The notes under the pieces: model-generated
What the model saw: only the letters and a program-made list of their open reading frames with translations
Told to the model about the DNA's origin: nothing
The model's database searches: none
Position numbers and translations under genes: made by a program
DNA from: a phage
Sequence record: OZ346212.1
DNA: 64,000 nt
Strand: one strand, 5' to 3'
In this document: positions 5,106-8,119 of the stretch, one piece after another
How positions within the stretch are numbered: position 1 is the stretch's first letter
How the letters are laid out: each line of letters opens with the position of its first letter

Positions 5106-5134
5106 TTGACAACAGTCATAGGGCCTACTATAAT
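5106..5134 (+). promoter_or_regulatory. sigma70-type promoter (TTGACA-17-TATAAT)
   Basis: Perfect -35 and -10 hexamers with 17-nt spacer upstream of gene 5166. Confidence 0.6.
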
Positions 5135-6465: not shown

Positions 6466-6831
6466 ATGGAACAAATGAACGATCAAGCGTCGGTTGCGAT
6501 GAACGAGCAAGAACAACCTCAAGAATTTTTCTTAGGGTTAAGTAAAGATCAAGTGTCTCTTCTGCTAGTGCTTTCTTCTTTCATGGGAAGACTTCAGGAG
6601 CTCACACAACAGCCAGAGGCTGAACAATTATTCCAAGCTTTGCGTGAAGAAGAAAAATATCGTCGTTTGGACTATGCCTTAGGTTGGGTAGCTCAACAAC
6701 GAGATATGCTGATGGCCCTCTCTGGGACCACAAGTTTTGCAATGGGGCTGTTGGCTCAAGTTCAGGACAAATTAATTCAAGCAGGGTTTGCACACACGGC
6801 AAACACTAACGAAGAACAAGGAGACAAATAA
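6466..6831 (+). CDS. hypothetical protein (121 aa)
   Basis: Track ORF with SD-like GGAGA upstream. Confidence 0.55.
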   Translation: MEQMNDQASVAMNEQEQPQEFFLGLSKDQVSLLLVLSSFMGRLQELTQQPEAEQLFQALREEEKYRRLDYALGWVAQQRDMLMALSGTTSFAMGLLAQVQDKLIQAGFAHTANTNEEQGDK

Positions 6832-8057
6832 TGAGCGTTATTCAACAATTCGCTAACCCGATGAATCCGCGTGAAACTGTTTTACTGGCTCACGGCATGA
6901 TTAAACGTGTCAGCATCAAGCCTATCAAAGGTGCTGATCCTACAACAGGTATTAAAACCACTGTGTGGCAAGGTAAGAAAATTGAATCCAGCCACACCAT
7001 CTCTTTACTGATTTCTGAACTGGATTCCTCTGATAACCTGCTTCAAGGTGGTGAAGAAGTTTGGATCAGCATGGGTGATAAGCTGCTTAAACCTGGTCAT
7101 CAAGACTCTGTCTCTGTTAAAATTGATGACAAGTGGGAAACCGTAACGCCGGGATGGATCGTAAATATTCCTTTGAAGGCAAACGAGCATAACGGTAAGA
7201 CCTATTACAAAGGCTCACTGGCTAAGATGGTCAAGCTGGGTGCAGGAGAGGCTCCAGCAGCGACTCAGCAGCAAAAACAGCAACAAGGTGCACAATCACA
7301 AGGCCAGAAGCAGAAACCTCAGCAGAATGCCAATCAGGACGTTTTACGCATCTATGGTGATGTGACTCAGATTGTTGGCAACGTGGTTACTGTTAATGAC
7401 CACAAGATTGGCGAAGGTGCTATGGTTGTAACTGATGAGCAGCTTAAAGACCTGGTGGTAGGTGGTCGTGTTGCAGCCATTGTTGACAAAGACACCGGAA
7501 ACATTATCAGTGGTTTCAAGGCCTATCCTCCTAAGGCAGAGAACGGCACTCAAGGCTCTGGTGGCAAGCGTAAATCCTCTTACGACCCTATCGGTGTGGA
7601 AACGGGGCATAGCATCAATGCGTTGCAGATCATCCTGGATCGCGGGTTTAAGGTAGACGACCCACTGGGCGTGGCTAAAACACTGCACGTAGTCACCATT
7701 GAGCTTAAGAAAGAGTATGCTCAAGCCACCAACCGAGCTGAAGATGAAGTAGGTGCCAGTGTCGGTAATGCGGTGTTGAACGCTTGTCGCCGTATTGACA
7801 AGAAAACGAAAGTTGATGATTTTGCAGTGGCAATTACTGCAGAAGCAAAAGATGTCTTGACTAATCTAGCTGAGCCGTTGTACGATTGGATCAAGAACGG
7901 TGCTGAGTCCACTGACCATCAAGAACCTCAGGCTGCCAAACAGGAAGCAGCTCCACAGCAAAACACTGTAGACGCTCCTCCTGTAAATGATGCGGAAGAT
8001 GACCCAATGGATCAGAATCCAGCACAGTACGTCTTTGATGATGACATCCCATTTTAA
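6831..8057 (+). CDS. putative ssDNA-binding-like protein with SSB-type C-terminal tip
   Basis: Ends ...YVFDDDIPF*, identical to the E. coli SSB interaction tip; internal Q-rich low-complexity linker (QQQKQQQGAQSQGQKQKPQQ). Confidence 0.45.
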   Translation: MSVIQQFANPMNPRETVLLAHGMIKRVSIKPIKGADPTTGIKTTVWQGKKIESSHTISLLISELDSSDNLLQGGEEVWISMGDKLLKPGHQDSVSVKIDDKWETVTPGWIVNIPLKANEHNGKTYYKGSLAKMVKLGAGEAPAATQQQKQQQGAQSQGQKQKPQQNANQDVLRIYGDVTQIVGNVVTVNDHKIGEGAMVVTDEQLKDLVVGGRVAAIVDKDTGNIISGFKAYPPKAENGTQGSGGKRKSSYDPIGVETGHSINALQIILDRGFKVDDPLGVAKTLHVVTIELKKEYAQATNRAEDEVGASVGNAVLNACRRIDKKTKVDDFAVAITAEAKDVLTNLAEPLYDWIKNGAESTDHQEPQAAKQEAAPQQNTVDAPPVNDAEDDPMDQNPAQYVFDDDIPF

Positions 8058-8119
8058 CATTTAGTTAACATAGCCCTGCCAGAAAGGGTGGGGTATTTTT
8101 GTATAAGGAGATCTAAAAA

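What the first reader, a model, noticed from the sequence alone, without database searches (positions are those of the whole stretch)
6831..8057. Large early protein ending in the E. coli SSB tip DDDIPF
The last six residues are identical to the host SSB C-terminal interaction motif, preceded by a Q-rich disordered linker, while the N-terminal 250 aa do not look like a canonical single OB-fold SSB. The protein could be a phage SSB or a decoy that recruits or titrates host SSB-interacting proteins.
Basis: partly seen in the sequence, partly recalled or inferred. Interest (0 to 1): 0.45.

Follow-up and report, generated by a model that had tools for sequence, protein, structure and literature searches.

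The report
Phage SSB-like protein with host tip
This rV5-type phage gene encodes a non-standard single-stranded-DNA-binding-like protein that ends in the same six residues E. coli's own SSB uses to dock its partner enzymes; its near-identical copy in phage Bas52 was reported in a 2026 preprint as the trigger of the DRT10 defence system, so the finding is real but no longer new.

Summary
Window 6831-8057 (+) encodes a 408-aa protein ending ...FDDDIPF*.

The window is a Vequintavirus (rV5/Murica-like). The protein is 98.5% identical to Bas52_0087 (QXV84166.1). A bioRxiv preprint of April 2026 describes Bas52_0087 as an "SSB-like" protein with two OB folds and a C-tip. In that work it is required to trigger the DRT10/UG17 defence, with escape mutants D252V and Y351C.

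What I add:
- **Architecture:** a basic OB-type barrel (1-139), a Q-rich linker, a minimal OB barrel (171-236), a confident four-helix bundle (251-360) with no fold relative in the PDB, and an acidic disordered tail carrying the tip. Both escape residues lie in the bundle.
- **Family:** the helical domain defines about 130 clusters (PHROG 4477, no Pfam). Most are 250-300 aa (OB + bundle + tail). 84 of 130 end in [ILVMF]PF although the linkers are unrelated.
- **Context:** the gene sits downstream of primase-helicase and DNA polymerase A, even in homologs at 29-34% identity. It and the small gene upstream are the only SSB candidates in the phage genome.

Best reading: it is the phage's replicative SSB and uses a host-type tip to engage SSB partners. 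No biochemistry exists yet. Some alleles, including rV5 itself, carry a 15-aa cap after IPF, there joined to a homing endonuclease gene.

The parts
6831..8057 (+). Complete gene: 408-aa SSB-like protein, ortholog of Bas52_0087 / rV5 gp209 (PHROG 4477)
   Evidence: ORF and translation. PHROG 4477, E 1.7e-172. 98.5% identical to the place in MZ501102.1 annotated bas52_0087, QXV84166.1. The preprint's cloning primers match the window sequence.
6831..7247 (+). Domain 1 (aa 1-139): basic, elaborated OB-type beta barrel; the likely main ssDNA-binding domain
7248..7340 (+). Q-rich disordered linker 1 (aa 140-170)
   Evidence: pLDDT 25-34. Length and sequence vary among homologs.
7341..7538 (+). Domain 2 (aa 171-236): minimal five-strand barrel with OB topology (b1-b2-b3-helix-b4-b5); absent from the short-form majority of the family
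7539..7580 (+). Short basic disordered linker 2 (aa 237-250)
   Evidence: pLDDT below 50 for 237-250.
7581..7910 (+). Domain 3 (aa 251-360): four-helix bundle, the family's signature domain; carries both DRT10-escape positions (D252, Y351) and the invariant G255, G259, H260, N263, G312, L316
7911..8036 (+). Acidic, P/Q/A-rich disordered tail (aa 361-402)
   Evidence: pLDDT below 50. The whole tail, aa 361-408 including the tip, has net charge -11 and pI 4.05. Sequence not conserved among homologs.
8037..8054 (+). Tip DDDIPF, identical to the E. coli SSB-Ct; the free C-terminus follows directly (stop at 8055-8057)
   Evidence: P407 and F408 invariant. Family-wide conservation.
6466..6831 (+). 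Upstream 121-aa helical protein (PHROG 7310, unknown function), translationally coupled (TAATG overlap); possible partner
   Evidence: A homolog is adjacent to the PVP-SE1 ortholog (25% identity, E 9e-12). JLBYU08 also annotates it as 'putative SSB', which I could not support: no Pfam hit.
6820..6823 (+). Shine-Dalgarno GGAG, 7 nt upstream of the ATG
5106..5134 (+). Consensus sigma-70 promoter-like site (TTGACA-17-TATAAT, 12/12), candidate promoter of the transcription unit
   Evidence: This is a pattern match only; rV5 annotates a sigma-70-type promoter (P220) upstream of the corresponding gene cluster, but I did not map its position onto the window.
8073..8102 (+). Intrinsic-terminator-like hairpin plus T-run immediately after the gene
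   Evidence: sequence. Conserved in rV5 downstream of the inserted endonuclease gene.

Best explanation
The gene encodes the phage's own non-canonical single-stranded-DNA-binding protein.

**Proposed mechanism**
1. The basic N-terminal OB barrel, helped in this long form by a second minimal OB barrel, coats ssDNA at the phage replication fork.
2. The four-helix bundle mediates self-association or cooperativity. It takes over the role that OB-OB contacts play in bacterial SSB tetramers.
3. The long acidic disordered tail presents a host-identical DDDIPF-COOH tip. The tip docks proteins that read the SSB-Ct: host enzymes such as ExoI/SbcB, RecQ, PriA, chi and RNase HI, and probably the phage's own T7-like polymerase and primase-helicase.
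4. A side effect is that these interactions, or the protein's coating of ssDNA, change host ssDNA metabolism. The DRT10 reverse-transcriptase defence senses that change.

**Shown here:** the ORF, the tip, the domain layout, the OB-type predicted fold, family-wide tip conservation, replisome synteny, and the absence of a canonical SSB in the genome.

**Shown by others (preprint):** the protein is genetically required for DRT10 triggering, escape maps to D252 and Y351, and SbcB dosage modulates defence.

**Inferred:** ssDNA binding, oligomerisation through the bundle, and which partners bind the tip.
For: **Fold**
- AF2 gives confident domains.
- Foldseek gives weak hits to tandem-OB and phage SSB structures (AIM2 HIN, D. 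radiodurans SSB, DUF2815, phage p2 SSB).

**Charge and conservation**
- D1 has pI 9.1 and the tail has net charge -11.
- Aromatic and basic positions are conserved in both barrels.
- P407 and F408 are invariant.
- 84 of 130 clusters end in [ILVMF]PF and 15 more in an acidic stretch ending in F.
- Several homologs carry EPPMDFDDDIPF, the last 12 residues of E. coli SSB.

**Genomic context**
- The window runs from DNA polymerase (21-2450) through small ORFs to this gene.
- Short-form homologs follow Toprim or DnaB-type primase-helicase and DNA pol A in the same order.
- The phage has its own replisome. Apart from this gene and the 121-aa gene upstream, nothing in it is annotated as SSB, and only this gene's tail resembles SSB.

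**Genetics from the preprint**
- Bas52_0087 is required for DRT10 activation, escapes are D252V and Y351C, and SbcB overexpression weakens defence.
- Ortholog identity is established.

**Precedent**
- Phage SSB tails are needed to recruit partners: the last six residues of HK620 SSB recruit Sak4 (PMC5928155).
Against: - There is no biochemical evidence of ssDNA binding for any family member.
- There is no sequence-level relationship to any SSB family: no Pfam hit, hhalign probability 0.1% against canonical SSB OB domains, and no PDB profile hit.
- Many phages use the host SSB, so the absence of another phage SSB is weak evidence.
- About 33 rV5-like records, including rV5 itself, carry 15 extra residues after IPF. 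A strictly C-terminal tip therefore cannot be essential for phage viability.
Confidence: 0.65

Rival explanations
1. Tip-bearing decoy or hijacker. The main job is not to coat ssDNA. Instead the protein presents many host-type SSB-Ct tips, which titrate or redirect host SSB-partner enzymes (ExoI, RecQ, RecJ, PriA, UDG) away from host SSB and towards, or away from, phage DNA. This would protect phage ssDNA ends from host exonucleases.
For: - The tip is identical to the host's.
- The preprint shows that SbcB (ExoI) dosage counteracts DRT10 triggering, and its authors propose competition with SbcB.
- In one short-form locus the neighbouring small ORFs include a T7 Gp5.9-like ORF; Gp5.9 is a RecBCD inhibitor (own knowledge). 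This suggests an anti-nuclease neighbourhood.
Against: - Expressing Bas52_0087 alone does not harm E. coli. Strong titration of essential SSB partners would be expected to do so.
- A pure decoy has no need for two conserved OB barrels with conserved aromatic and basic residues.
- The conserved position inside the replisome module argues for a replication role.
- Capped alleles exist that would mask the decoy tip.
- This rival is not exclusive of the SSB model.
Confidence: 0.12
2. Single-strand annealing or recombination-mediator protein (T7 gp2.5-like dual SSB/annealase, or RecO-like OB-plus-helical mediator). It would act in recombination-dependent replication rather than as the fork SSB.
For: - Foldseek gives weak hits to the phage-related DUF2815 structures 4klk and 4jg2, which I recall as gp2.5-like.
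- No annealase is annotated in the phage genome.
- T7 gp2.5 combines both activities (own knowledge).
Against: - The similarities are at generic OB-fold level only.
- RecO reads the SSB tip rather than carrying it.
- No sequence match to Rad52, Erf, RecT, Sak4 or gp2.5 families was seen in Pfam or PHROGs.
Confidence: 0.1
3. Replisome adaptor or loader. The four-helix bundle binds the phage helicase-primase or polymerase, and the OB domains and tip only tether that complex to host-SSB-coated DNA or to host factors.
For: - The helical domain is the most conserved part and the only universal one.
- Both defence-escape substitutions fall in it.
- The gene is conserved next to primase-helicase and polymerase.
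Against: - The bundle shows no structural similarity to known loaders or helicase-binding domains.
- Domain 1 accompanies the bundle in all the homologs aligned here, and in the distant clusters the bundle starts at about residue 130-150, leaving room for it.
Confidence: 0.08

Closest known systems
Bas52_0087 (QXV84166.1) of Escherichia phage RudolfGeigy/Bas52, the 'SSB-like' trigger of DRT10/UG17 (bioRxiv 10.64898/2026.04.29.721553)
   Same: - Ortholog: 98.5% identity over all 408 aa, with the same neighbours.
- Same FDDDIPF end; D252 and Y351 are present.
- The preprint's cloning primers match the window sequence.
- The preprint also reports the AF2 picture of two OB folds plus a disordered C-terminus.
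   Different: - Only a few substitutions separate the two proteins.
- As far as I read it, the preprint does not describe the four-helix bundle as a separate signature domain, the short-form family, the synteny, or the capped and endonuclease-linked alleles.
Bacterial and phage canonical SSB (Pfam PF00436; E. coli SSB, P1, mEp235 and Vibrio phage BT-1011 SSBs)
   Same: - Basic OB domain, then a disordered linker, then an acidic tip ending DDDIPF.
- Some homologs share the last 12 residues, EPPMDFDDDIPF.
- The same optional 15-aa cap (APIGLQY...) occurs on both kinds of protein.
   Different: - No sequence similarity in the OB part.
- 408 aa versus about 170-180 aa.
- Adds a second barrel and a four-helix bundle.
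- Oligomerisation probably does not occur through the OB domain.
T7 gp2.5 and gp2.5-like phage SSBs (DUF2815 / Enc34 ORF6 type)
   Same: - Phage-encoded, sequence-divergent OB-fold SSB with an acidic tail ending in Phe.
- Works with a T7-type DNA polymerase A and a primase-helicase (own knowledge for T7; synteny).
- Weak Foldseek hits to 4klk and 4jg2.
   Different: - No Pfam or PHROG match.
- gp2.5 has a single OB domain, no helical bundle, and a different tail sequence.
- The gene's position relative to the polymerase differs.
Two-OB-per-chain SSBs (Deinococcus/Thermus SSB) and RPA
   Same: More than one OB barrel in one polypeptide. 1se8 and 2cwa, together with RPA subunits, are among the fold hits.
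   Different: - Here the second barrel is optional within the family.
- The two barrels are separated by a 30-aa disordered Q-rich linker.
HK620 SSB / Sak4 pair (PMC5928155)
   Same: The last six residues of a phage SSB are needed to recruit a phage partner onto SSB-coated ssDNA. This is a precedent for the tip serving phage proteins as well as host proteins.
   Different: HK620 SSB is a distant PF00436-type tetramer with an NDYPPF tip. No Sak4 is annotated here.

Membership tests
PHROG 4477 / Bas52_0087-rV5 gp209 ortholog group | Full-length sequence match to the family profile | tested here: met
   E 1.7e-172 covering profile positions 1-393 of 393. 95-99.8% identity to 115 rV5-like phage records.
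PHROG 4477 / Bas52_0087-rV5 gp209 ortholog group | Same locus as bas52_0087, with the residues hit by DRT10 escape (D252, Y351) present | tested here: met
PHROG 4477 / Bas52_0087-rV5 gp209 ortholog group | Acts as trigger of DRT10 during infection | not testable with these tools
   Shown genetically for Bas52_0087 only.
Canonical SSB (Pfam PF00436) | Sequence match of the OB domain to the SSB profile | tested here: not met
   No Pfam hit at E up to 1. tblastn of E. coli SSB matches the tail only. hhalign of D1 against SSB OB domains gives probability 0.1%.
Canonical SSB (Pfam PF00436) | OB fold | tested here: met
Canonical SSB (Pfam PF00436) | Disordered linker ending in an acidic tip D-D-D-[IL]-P-F at the free C-terminus | tested here: met
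Canonical SSB (Pfam PF00436) | High-affinity, sequence-independent ssDNA binding; homotetramer via the OB domains | not testable with these tools
   No biochemistry is available and no multimer prediction tool was on offer.
T7 gp2.5-like SSB (gp2.5 / DUF2815) | Sequence or specific structural match to the gp2.5-type OB domain | tested here: inconclusive
T7 gp2.5-like SSB (gp2.5 / DUF2815) | Acidic C-terminal tail ending in an aromatic residue (Phe) | tested here: met
T4 gp32-type SSB | Sequence match to the gp32 family | tested here: not met
   No Pfam or PHROG hit other than PHROG 4477.

The most novel reading that the evidence does not exclude
The protein stands for a large, unannotated phage SSB lineage (about 130 clusters at 50% identity; no Pfam family; PHROG of unknown function).

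In this lineage a new four-helix bundle, not the OB fold, would provide self-assembly. The host-mimicking tip would be a regulated hijacking device. Free-tip alleles would capture host SSB partners such as ExoI. Alleles with the recurrent 15-aa cap (APIGLQY...) would hide the tip. The cap is also found on canonical phage SSBs and, in rV5-like phages, is linked to a homing endonuclease gene. Hiding the tip might tune partner choice or evade tip- or SSB-sensing defences such as DRT10 or retrons.
Probability: 0.2. Interest if true: 0.55.

Novelty: already known. Interest (0 to 1): 0.35.

Why it matters
Phage SSBs are emerging as common alarm signals for reverse-transcriptase-based defences: retron Eco8, DRT9 and now DRT10.

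This protein shows that a phage can carry the exact host SSB docking tip on an otherwise unrelated scaffold. That gives a clean handle for separating two activities, ssDNA coating and partner hijacking through the tip, in both phage replication and immune triggering.

The family-wide picture may help annotate hundreds of 'hypothetical proteins' in rV5-, phi92-, PVP-SE1- and CR3-like therapeutic phages. That picture has four parts: the signature helical domain, the dominant short form, the near-universal PF tip, and the fixed position behind primase-helicase and polymerase.

The specific claim in the finding has already been published as a preprint.

Tried and rejected
**Searches that found nothing specific**
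- Pfam on the protein and on 10 distant homologs gave nothing significant. The PIN_9 and DCX2 hits at E about 0.1 are noise.
- phmmer and profile searches against PDB sequences gave nothing for the whole protein, D1 or D3.
- hhalign of D1 against a small canonical-SSB alignment gave probability 0.1%.
- Literature searches for the cap motif ('DDIPFAP') and for rV5/Vequintavirus plus SSB produced nothing beyond the DRT10 preprint. The retron Eco2 and ApeA papers mention Vequintavirinae but not this gene.
- The per-phage DRT10 sensitivity of capped Bas49 versus free-tip Bas52 is in neither the preprint text nor the held supplements.

**Ideas I dropped**
- I first thought the 15-aa extension seen in rV5 was a by-product of the inserted endonuclease gene. 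That is rejected as a general explanation. The same extension ends PVP-SE1 gp038 and canonical SSBs of Vibrio, Proteus and lambdoid phages with no endonuclease gene downstream.
- I could not support the JLBYU08 label 'putative SSB' for the upstream 121-aa gene. It is helical by composition, belongs to PHROG 7310 (unknown function) and has no Pfam hit.
- CR3 gp037 is not a homolog of that upstream gene.

Full report
**1. The observation**

Window 6831-8057 (+) is an ORF of 408 codons plus TAA. It ends ...NPAQYVFDDDIPF, and the tip is encoded at 8037-8054. A GGAG sits 7 nt upstream of the ATG. The ATG overlaps the stop codon of the preceding 121-aa ORF (TAATG), which suggests translational coupling.

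DDDIPF is the E. coli SSB C-terminal hexapeptide (PMC5872125 abstract). No other ORF of real length in the six frames of the window ends in [ILVM]PF. tblastn with E. coli SSB matches only this tail (E 0.002) and no OB core.

A chance occurrence of one specific hexapeptide at a C-terminus is of the order of 1e-8 per protein (my own estimate). Conservation makes chance irrelevant anyway (section 4).

**2. Identity**

The window is a Vequintavirus (rV5/Murica type). The protein is 99.8% identical to the corresponding translated region of phage Murica. It is 95-99.8% identical to the corresponding region of 115 phage records, and 27-41% identical in PVP-SE1-, CR3-, phi92-, Klebsiella-, Erwinia- and Pectobacterium-phage groups. 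Almost all copies are annotated 'hypothetical protein'.

It matches PHROG 4477 (unknown function) end to end. It has no Pfam family and no PDB relative by sequence.

A full-text search found bioRxiv 10.64898/2026.04.29.721553 (30 April 2026). In that preprint:
- Phage Bas52 escapes the DRT10/UG17 reverse-transcriptase defence through D252V or Y351C in Bas52_0087 (QXV84166.1).
- The protein alone is neither toxic nor sufficient to trigger the defence.
- Overexpressing SbcB (ExoI) weakens the defence.

Bas52 is phage RudolfGeigy (MZ501102.1). bas52_0087 is exactly the place that my protein matches at 98.5% identity. The preprint's cloning primers match the window sequence. The finding is therefore the ortholog of a protein already described at the level of prediction and genetics.

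**3. Anatomy**

AF2 with a 28-sequence alignment gives confident domains joined by disordered linkers:

| Segment | Residues | Description |
|---|---|---|
| D1 | 1-139 | Many-stranded beta domain |
| Linker 1 | 140-170 | Q-rich, disordered |
| D2 | 171-236 | Strand order b1-b2-b3-short helix-b4-b5, the classical OB topology |
| Linker 2 | 237-250 | Basic |
| D3 | 251-360 | Four helices |
| Tail | 361-408 | Disordered, ending in the tip |

D1 is basic (pI 9.1) and the tail is strongly acidic (net charge -11). Conserved aromatic and basic positions exist in both barrels: W78, W102, Y125, Y126, K25, K30, K49, K87 and K123 in D1; R173, Y175, K192, R213, F229, K230 and Y232 in D2.

**4. The family**

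An HMM of D3 searched against 1.84 billion representative proteins finds 130 clusters, 97 of them at E up to 1e-10. Most are 250-300 aa with D3 at about residues 130-250. This is a short form made of D1, D3 and the tail. The ~400-aa form with D2 is the minority.

The C-termini of the 130 clusters divide as follows:

| C-terminal type | Clusters |
|---|---|
| Ends in [ILVMF]PF | 84 |
| Acidic stretch ending in F | 15 |
| IPF plus an extension | 2 |
| Ends in DDLPW | about 8 |
| PF plus one further residue | about 7 |
| Fragments truncated within D3 | about a dozen |

The linkers in front of the tip are unrelated in sequence. Ten distant members all fall in PHROG 4477 and none has a Pfam hit. 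Their only matches to SSB PHROGs are through the tail. The tip is thus a selected, defining feature of the family.

**5. Context**

- In the window the gene lies downstream of the DNA polymerase (21-2450) and a run of small ORFs. The primase lies just upstream of the window.
- Two short-form homologs at 29-34% identity sit in the same order. One contig runs Toprim primase, a large polymerase-sized gene (only a faint RNase_H_2 Pfam hit; identity inferred), small ORFs (one T7 Gp5.9-like), then the gene. The other runs DnaB-type helicase, DNA pol A, small ORFs, then the gene.
- The fully annotated relative JLBYU08 encodes primase, polymerase, helicase, ligase, RNase H and exonucleases. It labels only this gene and its small upstream neighbour as 'putative SSB'.
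- tblastn with canonical SSBs against that whole genome finds only this gene's tail.
- A 12/12 consensus sigma-70 promoter lies at 5106-5134, and an intrinsic-terminator-like hairpin follows the gene at 8073-8094. This is compatible with early or middle expression by host RNA polymerase, but it is not proof.

**6. Mechanism**

The best-supported reading (confidence about 0.65) is a non-canonical phage replicative SSB:
- The OB barrels bind ssDNA.
- The four-helix bundle provides self-association or cooperativity.
- The acidic tail presents a host-type SSB-Ct tip that recruits tip-reading proteins of the host and probably of the phage.

Precedents are the tail-dependent recruitment of Sak4 by HK620 SSB (PMC5928155) and the tail-dependent contacts of T7 gp2.5 with T7 polymerase and helicase (own knowledge).

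The decoy or hijacker reading is not excluded and can coexist with the SSB role. As the sole function it is disfavoured for three reasons. The protein is not toxic when expressed alone. The barrels are conserved. The gene keeps its place in the replisome module. Annealase and adaptor readings have only generic support.

**7. Capped alleles (a side finding that bears on the tip)**

In rV5 itself the gene (gp209) is 423 aa. A ~640-bp insert lies exactly between the Phe codon and the stop codon. It adds APVGLQYGKSRIHAL and carries an endonuclease VII-type homing endonuclease gene whose start overlaps those added codons. Substitutions cluster next to the junction, giving DFCDDIPF. Thirty-three phage records share this junction, including BASEL phage Bas49, and related endonuclease copies sit at other loci.

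The same 15-aa cap also ends PVP-SE1 gp038 (...EPPMDFDDDIPFAPIGLQYGRNFIHCI*), where only a terminator follows. It also ends canonical OB-fold SSBs of Vibrio, Proteus and lambdoid phages that have no endonuclease gene downstream.

The cap is therefore a recurrent peptide module of phage SSB tails and not merely an insertion scar. It should remove the free Phe carboxylate that SSB-Ct readers are thought to need (own knowledge). Its role is unexplained, and I found no paper on it.

**8. Verdict**

The specific point, an SSB-like phage protein with the E. coli SSB tip, was published as a preprint for a 98.5%-identical ortholog, so I rate novelty as 'already known'.

Residual new elements:
- the helical signature domain;
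- the size and short-form architecture of the family;
- the family-wide conservation of the tip;
- the replisome synteny;
- the capped and endonuclease-linked alleles.

Interest is moderate (0.35). All functional steps (ssDNA binding, oligomerisation, tip partners) remain untested.

Noticed in passing
Window 8054/8055 (junction between the Phe codon and the stop); rV5 locus L002 15920-16562: In rV5 and 32 other phage records, a ~640-bp insert carrying an endonuclease VII-type homing endonuclease gene (PHROG 1035, E 7e-41) sits exactly between ...IPF and the stop codon of this gene. It extends the protein by 15 aa, and substitutions cluster at the junction (DFCDDIPF). The window carries the insert-free allele. 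Related endonuclease copies lie at other loci in some relatives.
   Followed up: yes
L012 5060-5230 (PVP-SE1 gp038); L003 1536-2084; L004 1584-2084; L005 1578-2084: A recurrent 15-aa cap after the SSB tip (DDDIPF-AP[IV]GLQY/TLPF...) ends both a homolog of this protein and canonical OB-fold phage SSBs (Vibrio BT-1011, Proteus V3, lambdoid mEp235), with no endonuclease gene downstream. A 27-aa query containing the tip and cap matched 678 phage records, 162 of them over at least 80% of its length. The function is unknown and no paper was found.
   Followed up: partly
Window 6466-6831 (+): A 121-aa helical protein (PHROG 7310, unknown function, no Pfam hit) is translationally coupled to the SSB-like gene (TAATG overlap). 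A 25%-identical homolog sits in the same position in PVP-SE1. It is a possible partner subunit. One GenBank record labels it 'putative SSB' without visible support.
   Followed up: partly
Proteins P0040-P0043 versus P0033-P0034 (alignment A1): The family is mosaic. Some members combine a very different domain 1 with a nearly identical linker, domain 2 and domain 3, or swap only the tail. This indicates domain-level recombination between phages.
   Followed up: no
Metagenomic family members P0127, P0139, P0152, P0154, P0159, P0161: A subgroup ends in ...DDLPW instead of ...PF. Others end in IPFS or IPFN. These may track different host SSB tips or partner pockets.
   Followed up: no
L014 7837-8001: In one short-form locus, the small ORF immediately upstream of the homolog matches Pfam Phage_T7_Gp5_9 (T7 Gp5.9 is a RecBCD inhibitor, from my own knowledge). 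This hints at an anti-nuclease neighbourhood.
   Followed up: no
GenBank records MG065635-MG065672: Sixteen records named 'Campylobacter phage', fifteen of them with host Campylobacter jejuni. The nine shown individually are about 98-99.8% identical to E. coli rV5-like phages at this gene. The names are probably mislabelled, or the phages were propagated on a contaminating host.
   Followed up: no
Window 5106-5134 (+): A perfect 12/12 sigma-70 consensus promoter (TTGACA-17-TATAAT) lies upstream of the ORF run that ends with this gene.
   Followed up: no
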